From the NCBI GenBank assembly GCA_015231405.1, contig JADGBR010000010.1, positions 14,489-78,488 on the forward strand: a DNA stretch of 64,000 bases, in the 5' to 3' direction. Of this stretch, positions 18,388 through 63,724 are shown one piece after another. The position numbers and the translations under genes were made by a program. How positions within the stretch are numbered: position 1 is the first letter of the stretch; each line of letters begins with the position of its first letter. The notes under the pieces are model-generated. The model ran no database searches and was not told the DNA's origin. It saw nothing but the letters and a program-made list of their open reading frames with translations. Origin of the DNA: Candidatus Omnitrophota bacterium. GTDB lineage: Bacteria; Omnitrophota; Gorgyraeia; Tantalellales; Tantalellaceae.

Positions 18388-18407
18388 GATATAACCTGAC
18401 ACCTGAG

Positions 18408-18758
18408 CTATGACAACGTATGTGACGCAAAACTACCCACATTGGGACATGTCGGGTTGGTAGTATAACTTCCGATTGTATAAGAAGCCGTACCAGCCGG
18501 GCATTTGGGCTCTTTCTTGATATAAGAAGGCACCAGATCTGTCCAAGCCGCCGTTCCTGTATGTCCGTCAAGCCCCCATAGAGTCTTCGCGCCGTCGATC
18601 TGTTTCAGATTAGCTATACAAGCGTTCTGCTGTGCTTTTTCCCTGGCCTTTAAAAAGTTCGGGATAGCTACAGCCGCCAATAAACCTATAATTGCAACTA
18701 CTATCATTATTTCGACCAGCGTAAAACCCTGTTTACCTAACAGTTTTTTTATCTTCAT
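18408..18758 (-). CDS. type IV pilin / GspG-like pseudopilin with prepilin leader
   Basis: Start taken at the ATG at 18758, preceded by AAGGAGGTGA 7 nt upstream (the track start is a GTG). The leader MKIKKLLGKQG is followed by FTLVEIMIVVAIIGLLAAVAIP, a class III signal with Glu at +5. Four Cys lie in the C-terminal half. Confidence 0.75.
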   Translation of the reverse strand: MKIKKLLGKQGFTLVEIMIVVAIIGLLAAVAIPNFLKAREKAQQNACIANLKQIDGAKTLWGLDGHTGTAAWTDLVPSYIKKEPKCPAGTASYTIGSYTTNPTCPNVGSFASHTLS

Positions 18759-18903
18759 TTTTCTCACCTCCTTCACAATTTTGTTTGATATTCTTGAATT
18801 GCTTTCCTATCTCACATACATTTCAAGTATACCTGGTGTAAATGAAAAAGGCAAATTTAATGTCTCTTAATCTTTAGCTGGCTATTATATACTGCTAACA
18901 TTA

Positions 18904-20124
18904 TCAACCGCCCAGTACTGAAGATAATTGGAAAATTGGCAGGAACATGCACATAACTATCCCTCCTATAACAATACCCAGAAACGCAATGATAAGCGGC
19001 TCGATCATGCTTGTCAACCCTTCCACAGCGGCATTAACCTGACTGTCGTAAAAATCGGATATCTTTGAGAGCATTTTATCCAGCTGCCCGCTTTTTTCGC
19101 CAACCGACACCATTCTTGTGACCATCGATGGAAAAACCCCGGATTTTTCGAGAGGCGTGGCGATGCTTTCGCCGTCCCTCACTTTGTCCCTTACATCGAT
19201 TATGGCTTTTTCTATTATCACGTTCCCCGACGTTTTCGCCACTATTTCAAGCGCTGAGAGTATTGGAACTCCGCTCTTAACAAGAGTGCTGAGTGTCCTT
19301 GAGAATTTGCTTATGGCGAATTTCCTGATCAGAGGGCCGAATAATGGGATGTTCAACTTCAGTCTGTCGATCTTTTTCATTCCTTTTTCCGTGCGGGCAT
19401 AGTACCTGAACCAGAAGATAAAGGCAATGACTAAGGCTATTATGATAAGAAAGTAATTGCGGAGTATATCGCTTATGTTAATGAGGATCTGCGTTGGCAA
19501 AGGCAGCTGAGCGGAAAAGCCAACGTATATCTCCTTGAACACTGGAATGACCTTTACCATTAAAACAAGCGTGATAAAAACCGCCATAGACGAAACGATC
19601 ATCGGGTACATCAGCGCCGATTTGACCTTTTTCTGCAGGTCATTGGTCTTTTCGATATAGGTAGCTACCCTGTCCAGTATAGTGTCAAGCATCCCGCTGG
19701 ATTCGCCTGCATCGATCATGTTCACGAACAAAGGGGTAAACACATCGGAGTGCTTCAGGAATGCGTCGGAAAGGCTTGATCCCGTATTTACCGAGTCCCT
19801 GACATCGGTAAGGACCTTTTTGAGTGTTATGTTATCGGTCTGGTCTATCAATATGTCCAGCGCGTTGACGACCGGTATACCTGATTCGATCATAGTGGCC
19901 AGTTGGCGGAAAAGTATGACAAGGTCATCCAGTTTGATCTTTTTTCCGCCCTTGATCCTGAAGATCGCGGCAAAGCCCTCGGGCTTTTTAACTTCTTCGA
20001 GCTTCAGGACCATCAACTGTTTCGACCTCAATATTTCGACAGCCTGACCCTTTCCCTGGGCCTCGAGATCGCCTTTTAAGGTCTTCCCGCTCCTGTCCTT
20101 GGCTGTGTAATTAAAATTCGGCAT
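18904..20124 (-). CDS. type II secretion / type IV pilus platform protein (GspF/PilC family)
   Basis: Two T2SSF repeats and three TM segments. Start taken at the internal ATG (MPNFNYTAKDRSGK), because the track extension overlaps pilB. Confidence 0.8.
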   Translation of the reverse strand: MPNFNYTAKDRSGKTLKGDLEAQGKGQAVEILRSKQLMVLKLEEVKKPEGFAAIFRIKGGKKIKLDDLVILFRQLATMIESGIPVVNALDILIDQTDNITLKKVLTDVRDSVNTGSSLSDAFLKHSDVFTPLFVNMIDAGESSGMLDTILDRVATYIEKTNDLQKKVKSALMYPMIVSSMAVFITLVLMVKVIPVFKEIYVGFSAQLPLPTQILINISDILRNYFLIIIALVIAFIFWFRYYARTEKGMKKIDRLKLNIPLFGPLIRKFAISKFSRTLSTLVKSGVPILSALEIVAKTSGNVIIEKAIIDVRDKVRDGESIATPLEKSGVFPSMVTRMVSVGEKSGQLDKMLSKISDFYDSQVNAAVEGLTSMIEPLIIAFLGIVIGGIVMCMFLPIFQLSSVLGG

Positions 20125-20209
20125 GGAACCTGCCTCCGGAAAAGGATCCACGGCCCCCGGATGACTTTCCCATACAGCTCTCGGATAATTTATTCCCCAT
20201 AATTTCACC

Positions 20210-21940
20210 TCAAGTAACCCTATACACTTCCTGGAGCGTCGTATCACCCGAACAGAATTTCCTGATCGCGTTCTCCCTCAGGTTCTTGAACCCTTTTGAC
20301 CTTAGGTTCTTCTTTATCTCTTCCTCGGAAGCTCCCTTATTAATAAGCCTGGCAAGATCTTCGTCCATCATCATCGTCTCTATCGCGGCGAGCCTGCCTC
20401 TGTACCCTGTGTTATTGCACTTGGCGCAGCCTTTTCCTGTATAGAAGGACTTAACATTCCTGATTGCCGGATATCTTCCCTCCAGGCTCTGTCTTATCTC
20501 CGGAGAAAGGTCCATTTCTGTTTTGCAATACGGGCAGATCTTCCGTAATAGCCTTTGGGCACAGCACATTATCAGGCTTGAAGAAATGAGGAAAGGCTCA
20601 ACCCCCATGTTGATAAGCCTCGTTATCGCCCCGACCGAATCGTTGGTATGAAGGGTTGTAAGGACAAGATGCCCGGTCAATGAGGCTTTTATCGCGATAT
20701 CGGCTGTTTCCTGGTCCCTTATCTCGCCTATCAGGATTATATCCGGCGTCTGTCGAAGGATCGAGCGCAAACCCTCGGAAAAACCGAGCCCGATATCCTC
20801 GGAAACCGGGACCTGGGTTATCCCCTGGACCTGATATTCAACGGGATCCTCTACGGTTATTATGTTCTTCTCGGGAACATTCAATTTAGAAAGTACTGAA
20901 TATAATGTTGTGGATTTACCGCTCCCGGTAGGGCCGGTTACAAGGATAATGCCATATGGGCTTGCGATCGCCTTGTTAAAATCGGCCAGAGGTTCCGGTA
21001 GAAATCCCAAAGACTCAAGGCCCACCGACAGGTTGCTCTTATCAAGGGCCCTAAGAACTATTTTGTTCCCGAACACGGTAGGAAGCACCGATACCCTGAA
21101 GTCAATTTCCTTACCGGACATCTTTATCCTGAACCTCCCGTCCTGTGTCGTCCTGGAATCGGTGATGTCTATATTGCTCATTATTTTTATCCTCGTAGTC
21201 ACCGCCCCCTGGTTCTTTTGCGGGAGTTCAAAAGCCTCCTGTAGTTCACCGTCTATCCTGTACCGAATCCTGAGATGTTTTTCCTGGGGCTCGATATGTA
21301 TATCGCTGGCTCTCCTTTTTATCGCCTCGCTTATTATCACGGAAACAATTTTTACGATCGGAGCCCCTCCGCTTTCGGCCGAATCGGCGGAAAGGTCGAA
21401 CTCCTCGAGCTTTGTATCCCTGGACACCATCTCTACCGAAGCTATGTCCTTATTTGCGTCGAGAATGCTGTCGACGTCAAGATCATCGTTCCTGCCGGAT
21501 GAAAGGCTGGCCTCAATATCTTTACGCAAAGCCAGAAGAACGCTGATTTCACAGCCGGTCACTGTCTTCACGTCGTCAAGCGCCATTATATCCGACGGGT
21601 CGGAGATGGCTACGGTCAGGAAATCATCGATCCTGGATACCGCGATCACCTTATACTTGTGCGATATCTTGTCCGGGATGAGATTTCGGATATCAGGCGA
21701 TATCTCTATCCTGGAGAGAATGACCGGCACGATCCCGAAACAAACGCTCATCGAAGAAAGAAGATCGTCCCGTTTGACCATTTTTTCATCCAATAAACGG
21801 GTAAATAGGTCGACTCCAGGCCCAAGAGGCTTTTCCGTTGACGAGCGCCACTTTTCATCCAGGCATCCTTTCTTCTGAAGGATATCAAGTATCTTTTCCT
21901 GTGTTTTCTTATCCATTGCTATTATCCATACTCCTGTCAT
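20210..21940 (-). CDS. GspE/PilB-family secretion ATPase (copy 1)
   Basis: 576 aa with an N-terminal T2SSE_N-like domain, Walker A GPTGSGKSTT, an Asp box, and a C-terminal CxxC...CxxC zinc finger. Confidence 0.85.
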   Translation of the reverse strand: MTGVWIIAMDKKTQEKILDILQKKGCLDEKWRSSTEKPLGPGVDLFTRLLDEKMVKRDDLLSSMSVCFGIVPVILSRIEISPDIRNLIPDKISHKYKVIAVSRIDDFLTVAISDPSDIMALDDVKTVTGCEISVLLALRKDIEASLSSGRNDDLDVDSILDANKDIASVEMVSRDTKLEEFDLSADSAESGGAPIVKIVSVIISEAIKRRASDIHIEPQEKHLRIRYRIDGELQEAFELPQKNQGAVTTRIKIMSNIDITDSRTTQDGRFRIKMSGKEIDFRVSVLPTVFGNKIVLRALDKSNLSVGLESLGFLPEPLADFNKAIASPYGIILVTGPTGSGKSTTLYSVLSKLNVPEKNIITVEDPVEYQVQGITQVPVSEDIGLGFSEGLRSILRQTPDIILIGEIRDQETADIAIKASLTGHLVLTTLHTNDSVGAITRLINMGVEPFLISSSLIMCCAQRLLRKICPYCKTEMDLSPEIRQSLEGRYPAIRNVKSFYTGKGCAKCNNTGYRGRLAAIETMMMDEDLARLINKGASEEEIKKNLRSKGFKNLRENAIRKFCSGDTTLQEVYRVT

Positions 21941-23669
21941 CCATGGTCACCCTTAATATTTCCTCAAGGGAAGTGACGCCTAGAATGACGTTCTCCATAC
22001 CGTTCATCCTGAGAGTAATCATCCCCTCCTCTCTGGCCTTCTTCTCAAGCTCAGGCTCATCAGCTCCCCTGAACAATATCTCCTTTATAGCCGGAGTCAT
22101 CCTGAGGCACTCAACGATCACCGCCCTCCCCTTGTATCCGGAATTCATACAAACGGGGCACCCTTTCGGACGGTATATGCCTTTTATCTTACCATCGGGA
22201 CCTATGAGCCCGAATTTCCTGGCGGTCTTCTCCTCGGGAACAAAATACTCCCTGCATTCCCTGCAGAGCTTTCTGACAAGCCTTTGGGCTATGATCATAA
22301 TGACCGACGACGCGATAAGGAAAGGCTCAACGCCCATATTGACCAGACGGACGATTGACCCTGAAGCGCTGTTGGTATGCAATGTACTCAGCACCAGATG
22401 CCCTGTCAGAGCGGATTTGATAGCTATATCCACCGTCTCAAAATCCCTGATCTCCCCTATCAGTATAATATCCGGGTCCTGTCTGAGTATTGACCTCAAA
22501 CAACTCGAGAATGTCAGCCCTATTTCACTCTTCACATTCACCTGGTTTATCCCCGATAGCTCATATTCGACCGGGTCCTCTACGGTGACTAGGTTCCTGC
22601 CTGGAGAATCGACATATTTCAGTATTGAGTAGAGTGTCGTAGTTTTACCGGAACCGGTGGGGCCGCAGGCGAGTATCATCCCATGAGGCTTTTCGCTTTC
22701 CTCTATAATAGATTCCCTGTCACGGTCCTGAAGCCCCAGCCTGTTTATATCCACCATCACCTGGTCTTTGTCCAGTATCCTGAGACATGCCTTCTCACCT
22801 GTGATGGAAGGAAGTATGGATAAACGGAAATCAACCTTCCGCCCCTCGACCTTTATCTGGAACCTTCCGTCCTGGGGCAGCCTTCTCTCGGCGATATTCA
22901 GCATGGACATGACCTTCAGCCTCGAAATAAGCGAAGCGTGATATTTTTTCGGGGGCGTCTCTATCTCATGGAGTATCCCGTCGATCCTGTACCTTACGCG
23001 GAAAGTCCTTTCCATAGGCTCTATAAGTATATCGCTGGCTCCCTGTTTTACGCCGCGTCCGAGAATTAGATTGGCAAGTTTGATAATAGGGGTATCTTCG
23101 GCCGCGCTTAGGAGATCCCCGGAAGTGGCTTCTTCCTCTTCTCCGAGCATCTGCATCTCGGAGGCACCGATATCGTCGACTATCTTCTCTATCTCCTCGT
23201 CGGCCGAACGTTCGTAAAACCGGGTAATGGCTTCCCGCATCACGTCCTTATCGGAAAGAACGGCCCTCAGATTAAGCTTTGTGATGGCCTTCAGGTCGTC
23301 CATGGCGAAAATATTAGTCGGGTCGGTAATAGCCACCGTCAGCACATCACCCAATCTGGCCACCGGTAGGACCATGTACATCAAAGCCACCCTTTTAGGT
23401 AAGATACTGACGAGGTCTCTGTCAATGTTGATCCGGGAAAGGTCCAGCGGGGTAATACCGGTCAACATACTGACCGATGAAAGAAAAGTCTCCCTTGATA
23501 TCTTATGGAGCTTAATAAGGATATCCGTGACATTCTCGCCGCTTTCGAAAAATATTTCGCGCGCCTCTTTAAGATCAAGGGCGGACAGCTTCCCACCCTT
23601 TACCATATGATCGCAGATTTTATCTTCCAGGGTCATACCCATTGTTCCCCTCTTCCAGAGGCTGTTCAT
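21909..23669 (-). CDS. GspE/PilB-family secretion ATPase (copy 2, paralogue)
   Basis: 586 aa with the same architecture as copy 1 (GPTGSGKTTT; CPVC..GYKGR). It overlaps copy 1 by 32 nt. Confidence 0.85.
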   Translation of the reverse strand: MNSLWKRGTMGMTLEDKICDHMVKGGKLSALDLKEAREIFFESGENVTDILIKLHKISRETFLSSVSMLTGITPLDLSRINIDRDLVSILPKRVALMYMVLPVARLGDVLTVAITDPTNIFAMDDLKAITKLNLRAVLSDKDVMREAITRFYERSADEEIEKIVDDIGASEMQMLGEEEEATSGDLLSAAEDTPIIKLANLILGRGVKQGASDILIEPMERTFRVRYRIDGILHEIETPPKKYHASLISRLKVMSMLNIAERRLPQDGRFQIKVEGRKVDFRLSILPSITGEKACLRILDKDQVMVDINRLGLQDRDRESIIEESEKPHGMILACGPTGSGKTTTLYSILKYVDSPGRNLVTVEDPVEYELSGINQVNVKSEIGLTFSSCLRSILRQDPDIILIGEIRDFETVDIAIKSALTGHLVLSTLHTNSASGSIVRLVNMGVEPFLIASSVIMIIAQRLVRKLCRECREYFVPEEKTARKFGLIGPDGKIKGIYRPKGCPVCMNSGYKGRAVIVECLRMTPAIKEILFRGADEPELEKKAREEGMITLRMNGMENVILGVTSLEEILRVTMDDRSMDNSNG

Positions 23670-23692
23670 TCCCGCCTGGATAGGATCAGATA

Positions 23693-23746
23693 CCCGGAAT
23701 TCAGAATTCAGATCCCGGAACTCAGAAGCCAGGAGCCGGAATTTAG
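23693..23746. promoter_or_regulatory. three direct repeats CCGGAA(Y)T(Y)AGAA phased at exactly 21 bp
   Basis: CCGGAA at 23694, 23715 and 23736, in the 73-nt gap between the MshEN-domain gene stop and the pilB-2 start. Confidence 0.6.
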
Positions 23747-24192
23747 CTTTTTGAAGAATAGATCTTATTCAAGGCCGAATCAATATCAGAAATCACAGCG
23801 ATAAAGGATCTCACCGTTCTCATAGAGATCTCTTCCACATATTCAACGCTCTTCGTGTCCAGTGGATTCGCCATGGCAACGACGAGTATATCCCCGATAA
23901 GGTCGATAGGCGCGACTTTGTGTTCCCTGGCCATGGCTTCAGGTATGAACTTCGAGGCGTCCTTATTGAATTCGAACGATCCAAGAGTTATGAACGGGCA
24001 ACCGTATTGTGTTATAATGGCCTTCGTTATATCCCTGTCGGTCATAAAATTGAGCTTTACCAGGTTTTCGCCGAGAAGACCACCTTCGTTGGATTGCAGC
24101 TCCAAAGCCTCTCTTACCTGGCTCTGGGAGACCACACCCTGCCTTATAAGTATTTCACCTATCTTATCGTCGGTCAGCCTCTTGAACGTCAC
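23743..24192 (-). CDS. stand-alone T2SSE_N / MshEN-like domain protein (putative c-di-GMP receptor)
   Basis: 149 aa. The N-terminus KIGEILIRQGVVSQSQVREALELQ closely matches the MshEN c-di-GMP-binding motif RLGxxLVxxGxIxxxQLxxALxxQ. There is no ATPase domain. Confidence 0.6.
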   Translation of the reverse strand: MTFKRLTDDKIGEILIRQGVVSQSQVREALELQSNEGGLLGENLVKLNFMTDRDITKAIITQYGCPFITLGSFEFNKDASKFIPEAMAREHKVAPIDLIGDILVVAMANPLDTKSVEYVEEISMRTVRSFIAVISDIDSALNKIYSSKS

Positions 24193-24251
24193 TGTTTCCT
24201 CCCTTCGTCGTTCACTCGAACCCCATGAGCCTTATCCGTGCGCCATGACGA

Positions 24252-59091: not shown

Positions 59092-59523
59092 TCACCAGTA
59101 AAGCTTCTTGAACCTCTCCGAATAACGCTTGATCCACTCCTGCGAAGCCTCGGAAAGGGACATGTCCCTCCCCAGCTGAAGCGACCTGAGCACGCGGTAT
59201 TCCTCAATGAGATATATCTGTTCGATAAGTTTAACTTTGAAGGCGTCAGAGTAGGTAAGAAAAGCGACGCCTATTTTAAAGAGTCCGGTCTCAGGATCTT
59301 TCGCAGTATGAACGACTTTGGCTTTGATATGGAACGTTCTTTCGTACAACGGCATATTTATATTGATCCTCTTTTCTATTTCAACGTCATCCTTAGCCAT
59401 GAACAAAAGGCCGCCCTCGCTGATATCCAGGGTCTGCGTTTTGGTAAATTCCGGCCCGTCCTCTATCTGGTATTCAAGGGGACTTACAAGAAGGTGCCTT
59501 ATGAATCTTCTTTTCTCTGACAT
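59092..59523 (-). CDS. PilZ domain protein (c-di-GMP binding)
   Basis: Start taken at the internal ATG (MSEKRRFIRH). PilZ motifs RRFIRH (RxxxR) and DISEGGLLF (D/NxSxGG) are present. Confidence 0.7.
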   Translation of the reverse strand: MSEKRRFIRHLLVSPLEYQIEDGPEFTKTQTLDISEGGLLFMAKDDVEIEKRININMPLYERTFHIKAKVVHTAKDPETGLFKIGVAFLTYSDAFKVKLIEQIYLIEEYRVLRSLQLGRDMSLSEASQEWIKRYSERFKKLYW

Positions 59524-59560
59524 AGTACTTCCTTTTATTTGGCAACTATGCGCTATCGGA

Positions 59561-59794
59561 TCACAACAGCCTGTTATCAACAAGTTCTTTCTCCAGCTTA
59601 TTTATCGCTTCCTTAAGCTGCGAGAATAACTTAACGTTGATATTTATCCCTTTGCCTGTCGGCACTTTCTCATTCCCCTGGGGCGGCTGAGTCCATATCC
59701 TAATATCGATAACATCATTTCCCTGATATTCGGATATGCGAACCCTTATGTCCTGATACTTGTTCTTTTCAAAAGAGGCTATATCCTTTTCCAT
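59561..59794 (-). CDS. PC4/YdbC-like ssDNA-binding protein
   Basis: 77 aa with the pattern DIRVRISEYQG..VIDIRIW....G.......KGININ that is typical of bacterial PC4-fold proteins. Confidence 0.45.
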   Translation of the reverse strand: MEKDIASFEKNKYQDIRVRISEYQGNDVIDIRIWTQPPQGNEKVPTGKGININVKLFSQLKEAINKLEKELVDNRLL

Positions 59795-59920: not shown

Positions 59921-60325
59921 TTAAGCGGTAAAATTGTTTTTTCGTCTTGAAGCCTTTTTCTCGGAGCGCTTCCTTTTCGATTCGAGTATTTTTTCCTTAA
60001 GTGCCTTAGGCCTCTTCCTCATCGCTCTCTTTTTCTTTTCGGCCGCCTGCCTATATGAAAACTCTTCGCTGGAATGTTTCTTCTCGATCTTATCCACCAG
60101 AATAACCAGGGCTGAGTACCGGTTAAGGGACTGCGACCTCTCACGGGAACTCTTTACTTCCATACCCGTAGGACCATGTTTCAAATACACGCAGCTTGAC
60201 GTTTTATTCACCTTTTGTCCGCCGGGTCCGCCTGACCTTATGAACCGACAGATGATATCCTTTTCATGGATACCGAGCCGCCGCATTTTCTCTTCCAGTT
60301 CATGGTCACCTGTTAAAGCACGCAT
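59921..60325 (-). CDS. arfB: alternative ribosome-rescue factor ArfB (peptidyl-tRNA hydrolase, GGQ domain)
   Basis: 134 aa. The GGQ motif SGGPGGQKVNKTSS is followed by a basic C-terminal tail. Confidence 0.8.
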   Translation of the reverse strand: MRALTGDHELEEKMRRLGIHEKDIICRFIRSGGPGGQKVNKTSSCVYLKHGPTGMEVKSSRERSQSLNRYSALVILVDKIEKKHSSEEFSYRQAAEKKKRAMRKRPKALKEKILESKRKRSEKKASRRKNNFTA

Positions 60326-61253
60326 CTATTAGGTCATCCAGCTTCGCCGTTGCGAGGCACTGTACTGTATCGGCGCCCCCGTAGTATATCTTTACCTCCC
60401 GGTTATCCTCCAAGACCGCCCCGCATGTGAACACTACCGCATAGCTCAATCCGTTAAGCTCGTAATCTGTCGTCGGGGATAATATCGGGGAATCGGAACG
60501 GGCTATGATCTTCGACGGATCATTGAGGTCCGTCAGCATGACTCCAAGATGATAAACATACTGCGCCGCGCATTGCACGTTGACGGCATGGTATATAATG
60601 AGCCACCCTTTATCGGTCTTGATAGGAACCGCGCCTGGACCGTTCTTTTTCCATCCCCACTCGTCCTTAGCAAGAGCTACCGCCTTGGACCCACCCCAAT
60701 GGATGAGGTCCGGAGAATAGGAAACCCACATATAGGCCCTCCCGTCGCTGGTATTGGGCCTGTCATAACGGCAATAGAGCCCGTTGATCTTTTCGGGAAA
60801 AAGTACCCCGTTCCTGTTGTCAACCTCCGAGATAAAGCCCATCCACTTAAAATCGACCATATCGGTCGAACGGAGGAGGCCCAGACGGCAGGAGTGTGTG
60901 CTGTGGCACGCGAATATAATGTAGTATTTTCCCTCGATCTCGGTAACCCTCGGATCGTAATACATCCCTGTCGTATACTCAAGGAATTCTGGATCCTTAG
61001 GCATTATTATCGGTTCGGGGCGAAGCTGGAATTTTACGCCGTCAACGGAGTCAGCAGGCCATACGAACTGTTTCATGGATGGTGTTTCCACCCTGCAAAG
61101 CATCACGTATTTCCCGTCTTTCTTTTTGATGATCCCGGAGTTGAATACTCCTTTAGCCGCCAGAGGAACATCATTCTTGGTCAATATAGGATTACCCGGA
61201 TACCGAACGACGATATCCTGTTTCGATTTAGCGTACAAGTAACGTTCTGCCAT
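60306..61253 (-). CDS. glycoside hydrolase family 130 protein (beta-mannoside phosphorylase-like)
   Basis: 315 aa. Five-bladed propeller signatures (VFNSGIIKKKDGKYVMLCR, YYDPRVTEIEGKYYIIF) are typical of GH130/DUF377. Confidence 0.7.
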   Translation of the reverse strand: MAERYLYAKSKQDIVVRYPGNPILTKNDVPLAAKGVFNSGIIKKKDGKYVMLCRVETPSMKQFVWPADSVDGVKFQLRPEPIIMPKDPEFLEYTTGMYYDPRVTEIEGKYYIIFACHSTHSCRLGLLRSTDMVDFKWMGFISEVDNRNGVLFPEKINGLYCRYDRPNTSDGRAYMWVSYSPDLIHWGGSKAVALAKDEWGWKKNGPGAVPIKTDKGWLIIYHAVNVQCAAQYVYHLGVMLTDLNDPSKIIARSDSPILSPTTDYELNGLSYAVVFTCGAVLEDNREVKIYYGGADTVQCLATAKLDDLIDACFNR

Positions 61254-61339
61254 TTTGATACCTTCCCTTTTAAGTTAGTTGCGTTCAACAAGGAAACAAC
61301 GGACATAATTATACATACAAACCCGGAGGTTGTCGAGAG

Positions 61340-61382
61340 TTAGCGGTTTGCGTGTTAGCGGTTAGCGATTAGCGATTAGCGG
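61340..61382. repeat. tandem heptamer repeats TTAGCGR (4 perfect plus 2 variant copies)
   Basis: TTAGCGG TTTGCGT g TTAGCGG TTAGCGA TTAGCGA TTAGCGG, upstream of the GH130 gene. Confidence 0.8.
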
Positions 61383-61419
61383 AGGGCGGTAAGGCAACAT
61401 ATGGAAATGATTTATCGGT

Positions 61420-61460
61420 AAAAAAGGAGGGGCCTCGCGGGCGATAAGCGCCCGCGAGGC
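61420..61460 (-). terminator. intrinsic terminator after the ParA-like gene (12-bp GC stem followed by CCCTCCTTTTTT on the minus strand)
   Basis: GCCTCGCGGGCG-ataag-CGCCCGCGAGGC at 61432-61460. The A-run at 61420-61425 becomes a U-tract on the minus strand. Confidence 0.75.
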
Positions 61461-61470
61461 AGGGTTGGAA

Positions 61471-62514
61471 CTAGAGTTCGATGACTGAATCTATGCTGCC
61501 GAAAATATTGCTTTCCAGAACGGGATTACTGTCGTCATGCATCCAATTCCCGTCGACCAGGAATTTGTAACGGTGCCTTCCTTTGGGAAGGCTGAAATGT
61601 CCTCCCCATTTACCGTCCTCAAACTTTGTCAGTTTGTTCACTTCGGTCTTTTTCCATCCGTTAAAATCGCCAAGGACATAGACGGAGGACGCTAGAGGCG
61701 CGCTTACAAGAAATTCCTTAACATGGAGGTTCATATCCCTGGAGCCCATTTCCAGGAGTTCGGTTGTCACGTTGTAAAAATCCAGAGCGGCCTGGGATTT
61801 GGGATCGTGTTCGAAAATGCTCTTACCAAGCCCGGAAGCTTCTCGCAGCCTGACGCAAGAGCGTATCTTGGTAGACATCAGGAAATTTCCCACCCTGGCT
61901 TTCACATCCCTCTCAAGCTGCATTGCGAAATTAGACCGTCCGTCAAAAATATTAAGGACAAAAAATACCTCAGGCTGTTTTCCGGTCTCGCTGTTCAATA
62001 TCCCTTTAACACGGTAAATGCTGTTTATGGCGTTGAACGAGAAATAGCTGAGGTCGATCGGGACCAGAAGTATATCGGCCGCGTACATCGAATTGAGAGT
62101 TAGGAAGCCGAAGCTGGGCGGCGAATCGATTATGACATACTCATAATCCTCGCCTTTGTAATTGGCGAGGCTTTCGGAGAGGATCGCAGCGGCTCCTTCC
62201 ACGTTACCAAGGTTAATTTCAGCCGTGCTCAAAACCATGTTTGACGGAATGAACGAAAAGTTCGGCCTGTTGCGTAAAATTATGTCGTCGAGCGCGATCT
62301 CCGATTCATCGAGATGGGCTCTAAAGATGTCGTAAGAGGTTTTTGCCTCTGCGGCTTTTCTCGAATACCCCAGGGCGTATGTAGCGTGCGCCTGCGGATC
62401 GAGGTCAATTAAAAGAGTGTTTTTTCCGAATTTTGCCAATGTCGCTGCGATATTAACGGATAATGTTGTTTTCCCACAGCCACCTTTTTGGTTAACAATA
62501 GAAATTACTTTCAT
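61471..62514 (-). CDS. ParA/MinD-family ATPase fused to a C-terminal AMPK-beta-like glycogen-binding domain (CBM48)
   Basis: N-terminal deviant Walker A KGGCGKTT and a ParA fold spanning about 255 aa. The C-terminal 85 aa (VYVLGDFNGWKK...GRHRYKFLVDGNWMHDDSNPVLESNIFGSIDSVIEL) align closely with the AMPK beta GBD (VYLSGSFNNWSK...GEHQYKFFVDGQWTHDPSEPIVTSQLGTVNNIIQV), including both carbohydrate-binding Trp residues. Confidence 0.8.
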   Translation of the reverse strand: MKVISIVNQKGGCGKTTLSVNIAATLAKFGKNTLLIDLDPQAHATYALGYSRKAAEAKTSYDIFRAHLDESEIALDDIILRNRPNFSFIPSNMVLSTAEINLGNVEGAAAILSESLANYKGEDYEYVIIDSPPSFGFLTLNSMYAADILLVPIDLSYFSFNAINSIYRVKGILNSETGKQPEVFFVLNIFDGRSNFAMQLERDVKARVGNFLMSTKIRSCVRLREASGLGKSIFEHDPKSQAALDFYNVTTELLEMGSRDMNLHVKEFLVSAPLASSVYVLGDFNGWKKTEVNKLTKFEDGKWGGHFSLPKGRHRYKFLVDGNWMHDDSNPVLESNIFGSIDSVIEL

Positions 62515-62701
62515 TTTCTTAACACCCCCCCCTTATGTTGTATCTGAAAAGCCAAAGTAACCTTCAGATAGCGATATCCAACTTTCTTAAAAAAAATTAT
62601 ACATTACTAACAGTGTAATGACAAATTTTTTAGTAATATATTTTGTGACCGGCGTTTCCTCTGTATCGTTTCCCGATATTTTATCGAATAACAGTTGATT
62701 A

Positions 62702-63724
62702 ATGTTGCCCCTCGGGAATACAATGGTGTCGATGGATAATAAAAATAACTACGATGAAATTGACCGAGAAATATCTAAGACGTATTTCGCCCATTCCGTT
62801 AAAAAGCTAAAAAAGAAGCTGCCCGAGACAGAAACAAAAAATGTTCCCTGCGTTGAAAATTCACCGGATGAGCAAAAAATATCACCTCCCCAAAACAATC
62901 CGGTCCCACCCGAAATACCTATACCCCTCACCATCCCGCCGGTTCCGTATTCACAACCCATCGATAAAATGGAAAAGGCCAACCGTGGGTCTAAACGATC
63001 TAAAAAACCGCTCTTTTTACTTATATTGATCCTCGCGCTCACGGCTTGTACCGTCTCCGTCGCACTCTACTACTCAAAGGATAAAATTTTTTTTCTGGCC
63101 ATAACCGACAAAAAAGGGACTCAGCTCGCCTTCTTCGGCAAAGCCCAGTTCTCTTTTAACCCTTTTTCCCCGGCAAAGGTAATTCCCACGGAAGGGTCAA
63201 ATATTCTTTTTGATTTTGAGAATGACAAAGGCGGTTGGGAGATCCCTTCATGGGCAATGGATCAGCCCGACCACGTAGCTATTTCTTTAAAACACTCCGA
63301 TTATATCGCCTCTAACGGCAAAGGCAGCATTGAGTGTCTTGCGGATTTTCCGGGAGGTGAGTGGTCGGGGGCCTTTATTGAGATCCCCCAGTATTTCGAT
63401 CTCGGCAAGTATCTGACCATGGCGGCGGATATCTATATACCTCCCGCCTGCCCCAAGGGGCTTAAAACAAAGTTGATATTGACAGTTGGAGATGACTGGA
63501 AATTCATCGAGATGTCGCGTTACGTATCACTTGTCCCGGGAAAATGGGTGACCCTTTCGGCGGATCTTTCGGATACCTCCAAAGATTTCCGGAGCACGGA
63601 AGCCAAGGCCGGATTCAGGTCAGATATCCGTAAGCTTGGGATCCGGGTAGAATCGTTCAACAAACCCGTCTACAAAGGTCCGTTCTACGTAGACTGCGTG
63701 AGGGTATACGGCGAGAAGAAATAG
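62702..63724 (+). CDS. membrane-anchored protein with C-terminal beta-sandwich carbohydrate-binding-module-like domain
   Basis: 340 aa with a Pro-rich linker and one TM helix (LFLLILILALTACTVSVALYY). The C-terminal region (FDFENDKGGWEIPSWA...GEWSGAF) has a CBM/CIA30-like pattern. The start is uncertain because there are several in-frame Met codons. Confidence 0.5.
   Translation: MLPLGNTMVSMDNKNNYDEIDREISKTYFAHSVKKLKKKLPETETKNVPCVENSPDEQKISPPQNNPVPPEIPIPLTIPPVPYSQPIDKMEKANRGSKRSKKPLFLLILILALTACTVSVALYYSKDKIFFLAITDKKGTQLAFFGKAQFSFNPFSPAKVIPTEGSNILFDFENDKGGWEIPSWAMDQPDHVAISLKHSDYIASNGKGSIECLADFPGGEWSGAFIEIPQYFDLGKYLTMAADIYIPPACPKGLKTKLILTVGDDWKFIEMSRYVSLVPGKWVTLSADLSDTSKDFRSTEAKAGFRSDIRKLGIRVESFNKPVYKGPFYVDCVRVYGEKK

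What the first reader, a model, noticed from the sequence alone, without database searches (positions are those of the whole stretch)
61471..62514. ParA/MinD-type ATPase fused to an AMPK-beta-like glycogen-binding domain (CBM48)
The N-terminal 255 aa are a canonical ParA-type partition ATPase (KGGCGKTT, MinD/ParA fold). The last ~85 aa are a clear CBM48/AMPK-beta GBD, with both starch/glycogen-binding Trp residues conserved (FNGW, DGNW) and the characteristic KFLVDGNW..HD motif. ParA-like ATPases position cargo such as plasmids, carboxysomes, PHB granules and chemoreceptor arrays by binding an adaptor. Here a polysaccharide-binding module is covalently attached, so the cargo could be an alpha-glucan (glycogen-like) granule, which would make this a granule-positioning or segregation system. 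I do not know of a described ParA-CBM48 fusion. The neighbours fit a carbohydrate theme: a GH130 phosphorylase at 60306-61253 and a divergent membrane protein with a CBM-like domain at 62702-63724. The gene has its own intrinsic terminator.
Basis: partly seen in the sequence, partly recalled or inferred. Interest (0 to 1): 0.75.

Follow-up and report, generated by a model that had tools for sequence, protein, structure and literature searches.

The report
ParA ATPase fused to glycogen-binding module
This gene encodes a bacterial "cargo-positioning" ATPase with a glycogen-binding module fused to it; it belongs to a large, undescribed family that always travels with a peptide-bearing partner gene, and it may be the first ParA-type system that organises a storage polysaccharide.

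Summary
Window 61471-62514 (-) encodes a 347-aa protein: a Soj-like ParA/MinD ATPase (aa 1-256) joined by a 6-residue linker to an AMPK-beta-type CBM48 (aa 263-347). Pfam, PDB sequence matches and AlphaFold/Foldseek all agree.

It is not a one-off. 132 of the 150 best 50%-identity representatives in 1.84 billion proteins share the architecture. Most are from Omnitrophota; others carry labels from at least six other phyla. The two sugar-stacking Trp and the catalytic residues are invariant.

No parB, parS or second parA lies in the window. Instead, at least 63 of 86 loci have an adjacent single-pass membrane protein (here 62702-63724, +). It has a conserved cytoplasmic N-terminal peptide and an extracytoplasmic CBM-like domain. 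In other phyla an unrelated downstream protein carries an RGLEDISHLFLS-type N-terminal peptide.

Alpha-glucan enzymes are linked in 26 loci (GH57; GH77 in one).

Best reading (about 0.45): a two-protein ParA-type system that tethers or positions cytoplasmic glycogen. I found no published description. It is a new variant of a known kind, and its function is inferred, not shown.

The parts
61471..62514 (-). ParA-CBM48 gene (347 aa plus stop codon)
   Evidence: ORF. Pfam AAA_31/CbiA plus AMPK1_CBM/CBM_48. Exact match to NCBI 'AAA family ATPase [Candidatus Omnitrophica bacterium]' (P0001).
61747..62514 (-). ParA/MinD-type ATPase domain, aa 1-256 (Soj-like, no N-terminal extension)
   Evidence: phmmer against PDB: T. 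thermophilus Soj 1WCV/2BEJ E 2.3e-32, ParA 8RAY, H. pylori Soj 6IUB. Foldseek: TMt 0.93 to Soj 9A6N_A and 0.91 to 2BEJ. AF2 pLDDT 89.9.
62464..62490 (-). Deviant Walker A QKGGCGKTT (signature Lys10, Cys13, Lys15)
   Evidence: Invariant in 108 homologues. KGGCGKT is present in 117 of 132 fusion representatives from the unbiased search. Coordinates.
62125..62136 (-). Walker B VIID (Asp130). The Asp37/Asp39 switch motif lies at 62398-62406.
   Evidence: D130 107/108, D37 108/108, D39 107/108; 86/86 in the wider set.
61936..61938 (-). Arg193 in the D-G-R-S-N motif, aligned with the Soj DNA-binding Arg (R189 of B. subtilis Soj; that assignment rests on my recollection of the sequence)
   Evidence: R193 is 86/86 in the wider family and was not part of the scan pattern. 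Motif alignment to T. thermophilus Soj.
61729..61746 (-). Short linker GSRDMN (aa 257-262)
   Evidence: AF2 secondary structure: helix ends at 256, strand starts at 263. Linker identity about 23%. Linkers of 3-373 aa in relatives.
61474..61728 (-). CBM48 / AMPK-beta-type glycogen-binding domain, aa 263-347, with W287, K317, W324, F338, S340 and D342 at the positions of AMPK beta1 W100, K126, W133, L146, T148 and N150
   Evidence: Pfam above gathering cut-off. phmmer against PDB: AMPK beta1 CBM 4YEF/1Z0M/1Z0N E 6e-12 to 1e-11. Domain model pLDDT 94.9. All top 50 Foldseek PDB hits are AMPK beta CBM, SEX4 or Sip2, TM up to 0.86, rmsd 1.4-1.8 A. Residue conservation.
61432..61460 (-). Intrinsic-terminator-like hairpin (12 bp, 11 GC) followed by CCCTCCTTTT
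   Evidence: I4.
62596..62624 (-). Sigma-70-like promoter candidate for the ParA-CBM48 gene (TTGTCA-17-TATAAT, 11/12), overlapped by an inverted repeat at 62591-62631
   Evidence: I2. This is a consensus match only.
62702..63724 (+). Divergently transcribed candidate partner: single-pass membrane protein (NCBI start at 62732, 330 aa, 'hypothetical protein HQL30_06030')
   Evidence: ORF; P0267. Homologues are divergently adjacent in 9 of 9 loci of this sub-lineage. It is homologous to the upstream-adjacent partners of other sub-lineages (hhalign 92-97.5%).
62750..62788 (+). Conserved cytoplasmic N-terminal peptide YDEIDREISKTYF of the partner
   Evidence: Across 63 partners (mean identity 16%) the peptide columns are the most conserved: L/I 62/62, Y/F 62/62, L/F 59/62.
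63008..63073 (+). Transmembrane helix of the partner, preceded by RGSKRSKK (positive-inside rule implies N-in topology)
   Evidence: Sequence and coordinates.
63197..63706 (+). Extracytoplasmic beta-rich, CBM-like domain of the partner
   Evidence: Mann_GBD_bact and SGBP_B_XBD below threshold here. SGBP_B_XBD in 9 family members, CBM27 in 7, CBM30 in 3. Family profile against PDB: CBM11 1V0A E 1e-4, CBM27 1PMH, CBM30.

Best explanation
The gene encodes a cytoplasmic ParA/MinD-family ATPase that carries its own alpha-glucan-binding module. With the adjacent peptide-bearing partner it forms a two-protein ParA-type system that organises intracellular glycogen-like alpha-glucan by tethering, spacing or partitioning it.

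Proposed cycle:
1. ATP binding makes the usual sandwich dimer.
2. The dimer presents two CBM48 modules, so weak monovalent sugar binding becomes avid binding to the multivalent glycogen surface. The dimer also forms the Soj-like basic face for the nucleoid and the groove for a partner peptide.
3. The N-terminal peptide of the partner docks on the dimer and triggers ATP hydrolysis. In this genome the partner is a single-pass inner-membrane protein whose outer domain is CBM-like.
4. Hydrolysis resets the ATPase to monomers that let go.

The net effect would be that glycogen particles are held at defined places relative to the nucleoid and envelope and are shared between daughter cells, instead of drifting to a pole.

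Shown here: the domain identities, conservation of the catalytic and sugar-binding residues, the conserved adjacency of a peptide-bearing partner, linkage to alpha-glucan enzymes in some lineages, and the absence of parB/parS nearby.

Inferred: glucan binding, DNA binding, peptide-ATPase contact, and the cellular outcome.
For: 1. Both domains are identified with confidence by sequence and by fold.

2. The surface residues that contact sugar in AMPK beta1 are under strong constraint. W287 and W324 are 86/86 across 29-89% pairwise identity, position 317 is K/R in 75/86, position 338 is aromatic in 78/86, and position 342 is D/N in 85/86. The linker is free to vary from 3 to 373 aa.

3. The ATPase machinery is intact (K10, K15, D37, D39, D130), so this is a working switch and not a relic.

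4. The protein has no signal peptide. The Walker A strand starts at residue 2, so any ligand must be cytoplasmic.

5. Cytoplasmic alpha-glucan enzymes are linked. GH57 (209 bits) lies just upstream of partner plus fusion in 24 c2-type loci, and in a different arrangement in L014. GH77 4-alpha-glucanotransferase (591 bits) and GH57/DUF3536 are adjacent in L016.

6. A partner of the kind expected for ParA/MinD systems is conserved. It is an adjacent gene with a conserved N-terminal peptide, while the rest of the protein varies by lineage. That matches the general rules in PMC10241942 and PMC11407121.

7. There is no parB, no parS and no second parA in 64 kb, and no parB next to the fusion in any annotated locus.

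8. Most Omnitrophota MAGs studied encode glycogen synthesis (PMC8542988).

9. Unpositioned glycogen in E. coli collects at the old pole and skews nucleoid position and division (PMC12706056), so there is a plausible need for such a system.
Against: There is no experiment of any kind.

In canonical systems the ATPase activator sits on the cargo. Here the cargo-binding module is on the ATPase and the activator candidate is in the membrane, so the classical diffusion-ratchet picture does not transfer directly.

The window and the window's own sub-lineage have no alpha-glucan gene next to the fusion. GH57 linkage is mostly one clade (median fusion identity 66%) and could partly reflect inherited synteny.

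Candidatus Aadella gelida carries the fusion (P0034), but the paper lists only trehalose synthesis for it, not glycogen synthesis (91%-complete MAG).

The similarity between the Omnitrophota peptide and the RGLEDISHLFLS-type peptide of other phyla is a short-motif resemblance without statistical support. A loose regex gives 70/86 loci against 8% per control ORF, which corresponds to roughly 30% per locus by chance.

About 23 of 86 loci show no recognisable partner.

The DNA-binding assignment of R193 rests on my recollection of the B. subtilis Soj sequence.
Confidence: 0.45

Rival explanations
1. The thing being positioned is the membrane partner, or an envelope complex that contains it. The CBM48 then serves as the matrix-binding or anchoring element, with glycogen as the surface on which the ATPase sits, or as a sensor of stored glucan. 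In this reading the system places an envelope machine, for example a glycan-uptake or glycan-processing site with the outer-membrane barrel and GH57 of the c2-type operon, next to the glycogen store.
For: ParA/MinD partner proteins normally belong to the cargo and are encoded next to the ATPase (PMC10241942), and here the partner is a membrane protein. In c2-type loci the operon reads outer-membrane Alginate_exp/porin-like barrel, GH57, partner, fusion, small membrane protein. The partner's outer domain is CBM-like. In the window's sub-lineage the pair lies just upstream of the division and cell-wall cluster.
Against: No known ParA/MinD ATPase uses a polysaccharide as its matrix. The Soj-type Arg193 and the basic residues at 222 and 224 are conserved, which points to DNA as the matrix. 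In other phyla the partner bodies are soluble and unrelated, so an envelope cargo cannot be general.
Confidence: 0.2
2. The C-terminal domain has the CBM48 fold but works as a protein-protein interaction module, much as the AMPK beta CBM also packs against the kinase domain. It would not bind glucan. The protein would then be an orphan ParA-like ATPase for an unknown, non-carbohydrate cargo defined by the partner.
For: CBM48/E-set folds are used for protein contacts in AMPK (the heterotrimer structures are among the hits). The high pTM of 0.88 for the two-domain model suggests the CBM packs against the ATPase domain in this short-linker member. The window's sub-lineage has no alpha-glucan gene nearby. 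Aadella gelida has no listed glycogen synthesis.
Against: The residues that stay invariant are exactly the solvent-exposed sugar-stacking Trp pair and the Lys/Asn-equivalent positions of the AMPK beta1-cyclodextrin complex. Linker length varies from 3 to 373 aa, which argues against a fixed intramolecular interface. GH57 and GH77 are linked in 26 loci.
Confidence: 0.12
3. It is the chromosome-partition or replication-control Soj of these bacteria, working with a ParB-parS encoded elsewhere. The CBM48 would couple segregation or DnaA control to the state of the carbon store.
For: The nearest solved structures are chromosomal Soj proteins. Arg193 is conserved. Some sources label homologues 'chromosome partitioning protein'. 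I could not check whether these genomes have another ParA.
Against: No parB is adjacent in any of the annotated loci. There is no ParB box motif, no parS and no GC-skew switch in the window. A different, conserved partner gene is present. The score against NCBIfam ParA_partition is far below its cut-off (104 against 180). The ATPase domain's closest relatives in 1.84 billion proteins are other fusions, not plain Soj.
Confidence: 0.1
4. It is a scaffold or regulator of glycogen enzymes rather than a positioning device. The ATP-dependent dimer would recruit GH57 or other enzymes to the glycogen surface, or gate their access, without any spatial patterning.
For: The operon link to GH57. CBM48-containing non-catalytic proteins target enzymes to starch in plants (the PTST proteins; my own knowledge).
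Against: This does not explain the conserved membrane-anchored or otherwise variable partner with a ParA-type N-terminal peptide. GH57 is absent from most sub-lineages, including the window's.
Confidence: 0.08

Closest known systems
Soj/ParA of ParABS chromosome partition (T. thermophilus Soj 1WCV/2BEJ, B. subtilis Soj, H. pylori Soj 6IUB)
   Same: Same fold and size of the ATPase domain (TMt 0.85-0.93, 28-34% identity). It has the deviant Walker A with signature Lys, the Asp switch residues, Walker B, and the Arg of the D-x-R-[ST] motif.
   Different: It has a C-terminal CBM48. Cys replaces Val in the Walker A. There is no parB next door and no parS in the window. The partner is a membrane protein with a different N-terminal peptide. 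It scores below the NCBIfam ParA_partition cut-off.
McdA/McdB carboxysome positioning, and other orphan ParA/MinD cargo systems (PpfA, ParC, FlhG, PomZ)
   Same: A two-gene logic: a ParA-type ATPase encoded beside a lineage-variable partner that carries a short conserved N-terminal peptide, with a non-DNA cytoplasmic cargo (PMC10241942, PMC11407121; McdA structures 6NON/6NOP are among the fold hits).
   Different: In those systems the adaptor binds the cargo and the ATPase has no cargo-binding domain. Here a cargo-type binding module is fused to the ATPase itself, and the partner is anchored in the membrane (Omnitrophota) or has an unknown soluble body (other phyla). No polysaccharide cargo has been described in the two ParA/MinD papers I read.
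AMPK beta-subunit glycogen-binding domain (CBM48; 1Z0M/1Z0N, 4YEF, 4YEE, 2F15)
   Same: Best sequence and fold match for the C-terminal domain (E about 1e-11; TM 0.77-0.86; about 31% identity). The equivalents of W100, K126 and W133 are conserved, and L146/T148/N150 are conservatively replaced by F/S/D.
   Different: It is attached to a bacterial P-loop ATPase instead of a kinase scaffold subunit. There is a one-residue insertion before the L146-equivalent position. Ligand binding has not been tested.
Non-catalytic CBM48 targeting proteins of starch metabolism (SEX4/LSF1 phosphatases; PTST proteins)
   Same: CBM48 is used to bring a non-glycosidase activity to an alpha-glucan particle. SEX4 3NME/4PYH and LSF1 8J5D are among the hits.
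   Different: Those are plant plastid proteins with phosphatase or coiled-coil partners. None is an ATP-driven positioning switch.
PhaM/PhaF-type tethering of PHB granules to the nucleoid (my own knowledge)
   Same: The functional analogy: a storage-polymer granule is coupled to the nucleoid so that daughter cells inherit it.
   Different: The proteins are unrelated and there is no ATPase cycle. This is an analogy only and was not tested here.

Membership tests
ParA/MinD (deviant Walker A) P-loop ATPases | Deviant Walker A KGGxxGK[ST] with the N-terminal signature lysine | tested here: met
   QKGGCGKTT at aa 9-17. K10 and K15 are 108/108. KGGCGKT is present in 117 of 132 representatives.
ParA/MinD (deviant Walker A) P-loop ATPases | Switch Asp residues after strand 2 (D-x-D-P-Q) and the Walker B Asp | tested here: met
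   D37 108/108, D39 107/108, D130 107/108; 86/86 in the wider set.
ParA/MinD (deviant Walker A) P-loop ATPases | The fold of the family | tested here: met
   AF2 pLDDT 89.9. Foldseek TMt 0.93 (Soj 9A6N), 0.91 (2BEJ), 0.83 (McdA), about 0.8 (MinD).
ParA/MinD (deviant Walker A) P-loop ATPases | ATP-dependent sandwich dimer, with ATPase stimulated by a partner's N-terminal peptide | not testable with these tools
   Only indirect evidence: a conserved adjacent gene with a conserved N-terminal peptide.
ParABS chromosome or plasmid partition system | A parB gene (HTH plus ParB/Srx CTPase domain) adjacent to parA | tested here: not met
   There is no ParB Pfam family among the genes of six annotated loci or among the window neighbours. 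There is no GERRxRA or ENLQR motif in six-frame ORFs of the window.
ParABS chromosome or plasmid partition system | parS centromere sites nearby | tested here: not met
   0 matches to TGTTNCACGTGAAACA with up to 3 mismatches in 64 kb. A non-canonical parS cannot be excluded.
ParABS chromosome or plasmid partition system | Non-specific DNA binding through a basic face (Soj R189-type Arg) | tested here: inconclusive
   R193 is 86/86, position 222 is K/R in 68/86 and position 224 is K/R in 82/86. The equivalence to Soj R189 rests on motif alignment and my recollection of the sequence, and binding was not tested.
MinD-type membrane-binding ATPases | C-terminal amphipathic membrane-targeting helix | tested here: not met
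   The C-terminus is the beta-sandwich CBM48, ending ...SIDSVIEL as a strand.
CBM48 / AMPK-beta glycogen-binding domain | Profile match above the curated threshold | tested here: met
   PF16561 48.6 bits (gathering cut-off 26.8) and PF02922 24.3 bits (cut-off 22.4). PDB phmmer E 6e-12 to AMPK beta1 CBM.
CBM48 / AMPK-beta glycogen-binding domain | Beta-sandwich fold that superposes on solved CBM48 domains | tested here: met
   Domain model pLDDT 94.9. The top 50 PDB hits are all AMPK beta CBM, SEX4 or Sip2, TM up to 0.86, rmsd 1.4-1.8 A, and include the cyclodextrin complexes 1Z0N, 4YEE and 4YEF.
CBM48 / AMPK-beta glycogen-binding domain | Ligand-contacting residues (AMPK beta1 W100, K126, W133, L146, T148, N150; residue list from my own knowledge of the 1Z0N work) | tested here: met
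   W287, K317, W324, F338, S340 and D342 align to them. W287 and W324 are 86/86, position 317 is K/R in 75/86 (Q in 11), position 338 is aromatic in 78/86, and position 342 is D/N in 85/86.
CBM48 / AMPK-beta glycogen-binding domain | Actual binding of glycogen, amylose or cyclodextrin | not testable with these tools
   This needs biochemistry.

The most novel reading that the evidence does not exclude
This is the founding example of a ParA/MinD-type system whose cargo is a storage polysaccharide. An ATP switch carries its own glycogen-binding module, is reset by a short N-terminal peptide on a lineage-specific partner (membrane-anchored in Omnitrophota), and actively places and partitions glycogen particles. 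It would be widespread in uncultured bacteria of several phyla.
Probability: 0.4. Interest if true: 0.8.

Novelty: new variant of a known kind. Interest (0 to 1): 0.68.

Why it matters
ParA/MinD ATPases are the general positioning devices of bacteria. Known cargos are DNA, protein organelles and protein machines, and the ATPase reaches its cargo through a separate adaptor. A family in which the ATPase itself carries a carbohydrate-binding module would add polysaccharide stores to the cargo list. It would also show a different wiring, with the cargo binder on the motor and the activator elsewhere.

Recent work shows that unpositioned glycogen in E. coli piles up at the old pole and distorts nucleoid position and division (PMC12706056). 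The question of whether any bacterium manages glycogen placement actively is therefore open, and this family makes it directly testable. It offers a clean set of point mutants (K15, D39, R193, W287/W324, and the partner peptide).

The family also gives a functional handle on Omnitrophota and other uncultured lineages in which the gene is conserved.

Tried and rejected
- The look-up of encoding contigs with the window protein found no record, so I used homologues instead.
- Fold search against afdb50 was unavailable, so I could not list UniProt or cultured carriers. The listing of cluster members gave few names.
- A greedy longest-ORF gene caller failed on high-GC loci because of shadow ORFs. 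I replaced it with all-ORF clustering.
- My first peptide regex was too strict and missed the window's own partner. A looser one is enriched but not clean: 70/86 loci against 8% of control ORFs. I therefore rely on homologous clusters and hhalign.
- Motif searches for glgA, glgC, glgP and GH13 in the window found nothing, but they are crude. A full Pfam scan of the window was not done.
- GH130 as a functional associate is rejected as unreliable: 5 of 9 loci, and it has its own promoter-like site.
- The routine ParABS reading is rejected on the absence of parB and parS and on the presence of a different conserved partner.
- The coupled downstream genes of the non-Omnitrophota loci, and the recurrent proteins c3 and c4, gave no Pfam, NCBIfam or PDB sequence match.
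- The word-indexed search for the partner returned only 6 hits because the family is very divergent.
- Literature searches for a ParA-CBM48, ParA-glycogen or Omnitrophota-ParB description found nothing relevant.
- I could not establish whether these genomes also encode a canonical soj-spo0J operon.
Full report
OBSERVATION. The ORF at 61471-62514 on the minus strand is real: 347 aa with an ATG start. An SD-like AAGGGGGGGG lies upstream. Pfam places a ParA-type P-loop domain at the N-terminus (AAA_31 151 bits, CbiA 65 bits). At the C-terminus it places the AMPK-beta glycogen-recognition domain (PF16561, 48.6 bits against a gathering score of 26.8) and CBM_48 (24.3 against 22.4). The window is an exact match to a Candidatus Omnitrophica MAG protein that NCBI labels only 'AAA family ATPase'.

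THE TWO DOMAINS.
- By sequence, residues 1-260 are closest to chromosomal Soj/ParA structures: T. thermophilus Soj E 2e-32, ParA 8RAY, H. pylori Soj.
- An AlphaFold2 model built from a 50-sequence alignment has pLDDT 89.9 and pTM 0.88. Its ATPase part superposes on Soj with TM-scores of 0.85-0.93, and less well on McdA, MinD, BcsQ and FleN.
- By sequence, the last 95 residues are closest to the AMPK beta1 and beta2 carbohydrate-binding modules, including the cyclodextrin-complex entries (E 6e-12 to 1e-10). GlgB N-domains, SEX4 and LSF1 follow.
- A separate model of residues 258-347 has pLDDT 94.9. Its top 50 PDB fold matches are all AMPK beta CBMs, SEX4 or yeast Sip2, with TM up to 0.86 and rmsd 1.4-1.8 A.
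- In the HMMER alignment, W287, K317 and W324 fall on AMPK beta1 W100, K126 and W133. F338, S340 and D342 fall on L146, T148 and N150. The list of ligand-contacting residues is from my own knowledge of the 1Z0N work.
- The two domains are joined by only six residues (GSRDMN).

A LARGE FAMILY, NOT A CURIOSITY.
- The word-indexed search returned more than 100 clusters at 90% identity with the same architecture at 54-67% identity, and a second tier at 39-43%.
- The exhaustive HMMER search of 1.84 billion 50%-identity representatives found 791 proteins with E below 1e-30.
- Of the best 150, 132 have the ParA domain followed by one CBM48, always in that order, with linkers of 3 to 373 residues. Of the rest, 14 are ParA-only (several are fragments) and 4 are giant proteins made of CBM48 repeats.
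- So the closest relatives of this ATPase domain are other fusions, not plain Soj.
- A scan of one genome per GTDB species found 588 relatives. The best 80 nearly all cover the query end to end at 30-62% identity.
- Most record titles say Omnitrophota or 'uncultured Planctomycetia'. Others say Krumholzibacteriota, Desulfobacterales, Myxococcales, Acidobacteria, Gemmatimonadales, Margulisiibacteriota and Phycisphaerae, and one representative is from a Leptospirillia MAG.
- These are submitters' labels on MAGs and I did not verify them.

WHAT IS CONSERVED.
- In 108 close homologues, K10, G11, G12, G14, K15, T16, D37 and P40 are invariant, and D39 and D130 are 107/108. W287 and K317 are 108/108 and W324 is 107/108.
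- In 86 loci spanning 29-89% pairwise identity, W287, W324 and R193 are 86/86. Position 317 is K/R in 75 and Q in 11. Position 338 is aromatic in 78. G339 and S343 are 85/86, and position 342 is D or N in 85.
- Walker A invariance in that second set is partly by construction, because the scan pattern was QKGGCGKT. The unbiased search independently shows KGGCGKT in 117 of 132 fusions, so the Cys in the P-loop is a hallmark of the family.
- The exposed sugar-stacking tryptophans are invariant while the linker is free to vary. That is what one expects if the module binds a ligand in trans.

CONTEXT IN THE WINDOW.
- The gene looks monocistronic. It has a promoter-like site (11/12 match) upstream and a strong hairpin plus T-tract 11 nt after the stop codon. 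GH130 downstream has its own promoter-like site.
- The 64-kb window has no second ParA and no other CBM48. It has no ParB-box motif and no glgA/C/P-type motifs by a crude search. It has no parS-like site and no GC-skew switch.
- Downstream on the same strand lie GH130, an RF-1-domain protein, PC4, PilZ, mraZ and the division and cell-wall cluster.

THE CONSERVED PARTNER. This is the main new result.
- I clustered all ORFs of 87 loci by all-against-all BLASTP and asked which families recur next to the fusion.
- A protein of about 190 aa lies immediately upstream on the same strand in 38 loci, with a median gap of 22 nt (class c2). A 240-300-aa protein holds the same position in 9 loci (c15). 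A 210-260-aa protein does so in 6 more (c48 plus L003 and L050).
- In the window's own sub-lineage, a 270-360-aa protein is divergently adjacent in 9 of 9 loci (c13; in L001 a giant gene is inserted between them).
- Profile-profile comparison shows that these four classes are one diverged family: c2-c13 96%, c2-c15 97.5%, c13-c15 92% over 229 columns, c15-c48 96%. So at least 63 of 86 loci have this neighbour.
- All members share one plan. There is a short N-terminal peptide, then a Lys/Arg-rich stretch, one TM helix and a beta-rich domain. The positive-inside rule puts the peptide in the cytoplasm.
- Across all 63 proteins, which average 16% identity, the best-conserved columns are in the peptide: x-[DE]-[IV]-x-[ED]-x-L-[AS]-x-[IVT]-[YF]-[LF]. 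L/I is 62/62 and Y/F is 62/62. In the window the peptide is YDEIDREISKTYF (62750-62788).
- The outer domain gives weak but consistent hits to type-B CBMs: SGBP_B_XBD in 9 members, CBM27 in 7, Mann_GBD in 7, CBM30 in 3. The family profile matches CBM11 1V0A at E 1e-4.
- NCBI calls the window protein hypothetical.
- In 23 loci no such protein is seen, and most of the loci labelled as non-Omnitrophota are among them. In at least eight of these, the gene just downstream on the same strand begins with a related-looking peptide: RGLEDVSHLFLS, RSLEDISHFFLS, RGLEDISQIFLS, KGFEDISHYFLS, KTLADVSHLFFS, RGLGDVSRLFKE, ISNIAHFFLS, RDLGDVFDYFL. The rest of each protein is unrelated and mostly without any Pfam match; two have degenerate MinD/Mrp-like P-loops.
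- This peptide resembles the LG(R/K)GL-x-AL N-terminus by which ParB activates ParA (my own knowledge). The resemblance is suggestive only. A short conserved N-terminal peptide on a lineage-variable body, encoded beside the ATPase, is the signature of ParA/MinD partner proteins (PMC10241942, PMC11407121).

LINK TO ALPHA-GLUCAN.
- In c2-type loci a cytoplasmic GH57 enzyme (209 bits; the sequence starts directly with the catalytic HQP motif, with no signal peptide) lies just before the partner gene. It is found in 24 of the 39 c2-type loci, of which 29 have more than 2.4 kb of upstream sequence.
- The typical operon reads: outer-membrane Alginate_exp/porin-like barrel, GH57, partner, fusion, a small membrane protein (c4), a Lys-rich protein (c3), then DUF134.
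- GH57 also occurs in two differently arranged loci. L014 has it upstream with a gene in between. L016 has GH77 4-alpha-glucanotransferase (591 bits) and a GH57/DUF3536 protein convergent downstream.
- The GH57-linked fusions have a median pairwise identity of 66% (range 37-89%). Part of this linkage could therefore be inherited synteny.
- In the window's sub-lineage there is no alpha-glucan gene. GH130 is present in 5 of 9 loci, and its known substrates are beta-mannosides, so I do not count it as an associate.
- Most Omnitrophota MAGs examined by Williams et al. encode glycogen synthesis. Candidatus Aadella gelida, which carries the fusion, is listed with trehalose synthesis only.

MECHANISM.
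- Best reading, confidence about 0.45: a ParA-type ATP switch that binds glycogen through its own CBM48.
- The ATP-bound dimer would carry two CBMs and so bind a multivalent glycogen particle with avidity. The same dimer would form the Soj-like basic face (R193, K/R222, K/R224) and the groove for the partner peptide. Peptide-stimulated hydrolysis would release it.
- With the activator fixed in the membrane, as in this genome, the result would be glycogen held at defined places relative to the nucleoid and envelope, and shared at division.
- Shown here: the domains, the conserved residues, the partner adjacency and the partial enzyme linkage.
- Inferred: every binding event and the cellular outcome.
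- The wiring differs from the classical systems, where the activator rides on the cargo. The roles could therefore be inverted, with the partner or its envelope complex as cargo and glycogen as anchor or signal (rival, 0.2).
- Other rivals: the CBM48 fold is used for protein contacts only (0.12); a Soj that works with a distant ParB-parS and senses the carbon store (0.1); an enzyme scaffold without spatial patterning (0.08).

COMPARISON AND NOVELTY.
[quoted passage not shown] Every sequence-level and fold-level criterion is met.
- It is not a member of a ParABS system as far as can be tested, and it is not MinD-like, because it has no membrane-targeting helix.
- The C-terminal domain is a CBM48 of the AMPK-beta type.
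- In the way it probably works, it is closest to McdA/McdB-type orphan cargo systems. It differs in having the cargo-type binder fused to the ATPase.
- Full-text searches for ParA with CBM48 or glycogen, and the two ParA/MinD papers, gave no description of such a protein or of a polysaccharide cargo. The library is incomplete, so absence is not proof.
- I rate it a new variant of a known kind.
- Thappeta et al. (PMC12706056) show what happens in E. coli when glycogen is left unpositioned. That is why an active system would interest the field.

LIMITS.
- Everything is from uncultured genomes, and MAG taxonomic labels were not verified.
- Gene calls in the fetched loci are my own ORF calls.
- The cross-phylum peptide similarity lacks statistics.
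- I could not see whole genomes, so co-occurrence with glycogen synthesis and with a canonical parAB operon is unknown.

Noticed in passing
window 61339-61386: About six tandem copies of a 7-nt unit, (G)TTAGCG(G/A). They lie in the intergenic region between the ParA-CBM48 terminator and the GH130 promoter-like site (families D1 and D2). Function unknown.
   Followed up: no
window 62591-62631: An inverted repeat (17-nt arms, 82% complementary, 7-nt spacer) overlaps the -35/-10 promoter-like site of the ParA-CBM48 gene. It could be an operator for autoregulation.
   Followed up: no
P0121 (Candidatus Epulonipiscium viviparus, WP_305767917.1); also P0147, P0197, P0232: Giant proteins made of CBM48-like repeats: 1,812 aa with 18 matched stretches, and 1.3-1.4 kaa with 7 each. 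They were found as strong hits to the C-terminal domain. The first is from a giant, polyploid gut bacterium.
   Followed up: partly
window 59092-59794; L001, L007-L009, L011-L013: A small PC4-family protein (77 aa) and a PilZ-domain protein (about 145-163 aa) form a conserved pair in the c13-type Omnitrophota loci; where the flank extends far enough, mraZ and the division and cell-wall cluster follow them. A bacterial PC4 next to a c-di-GMP receptor at the head of the dcw cluster may be worth a look.
   Followed up: partly
L032 7125-7565 and L033 7068-7397 (classes c3 and c4): In c2-type loci the fusion gene is followed by a membrane protein of about 108 aa (24 loci) and a protein of about 140 aa with a Lys/Ala/Pro-rich, histone-H1-like N-terminal tail and a small beta domain (34 loci). 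Neither has a Pfam, NCBIfam or PDB sequence match. They may be further components of the system.
   Followed up: partly
window about 18400-24200: A cluster that looks like type IV pilus or type II secretion genes: a pilin-like protein with a GFTLVEIMIV N-terminus, a PilC-like protein and two GspE/PilB-like ATPases. I read this from translations only and did not check it with profiles.
   Followed up: no
L001 1-9809; L005 1-9166: Giant ORFs (more than 2,000 aa, no Pfam hit) lie directly upstream of the ParA-CBM48 gene in some Omnitrophota loci. In L001 one is inserted between the partner and the fusion gene. Giant genes are a known feature of Omnitrophota (bioRxiv 10.1101/2023.11.21.568195).
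   Followed up: no
window 62464-62490 and family-wide: The Walker A motif has Cys where ParA proteins usually have Val (KGGCGKT). It is invariant in 108 close homologues and present in 117 of 132 fusion representatives. A P-loop cysteine could make the ATPase redox-sensitive.
   Followed up: partly
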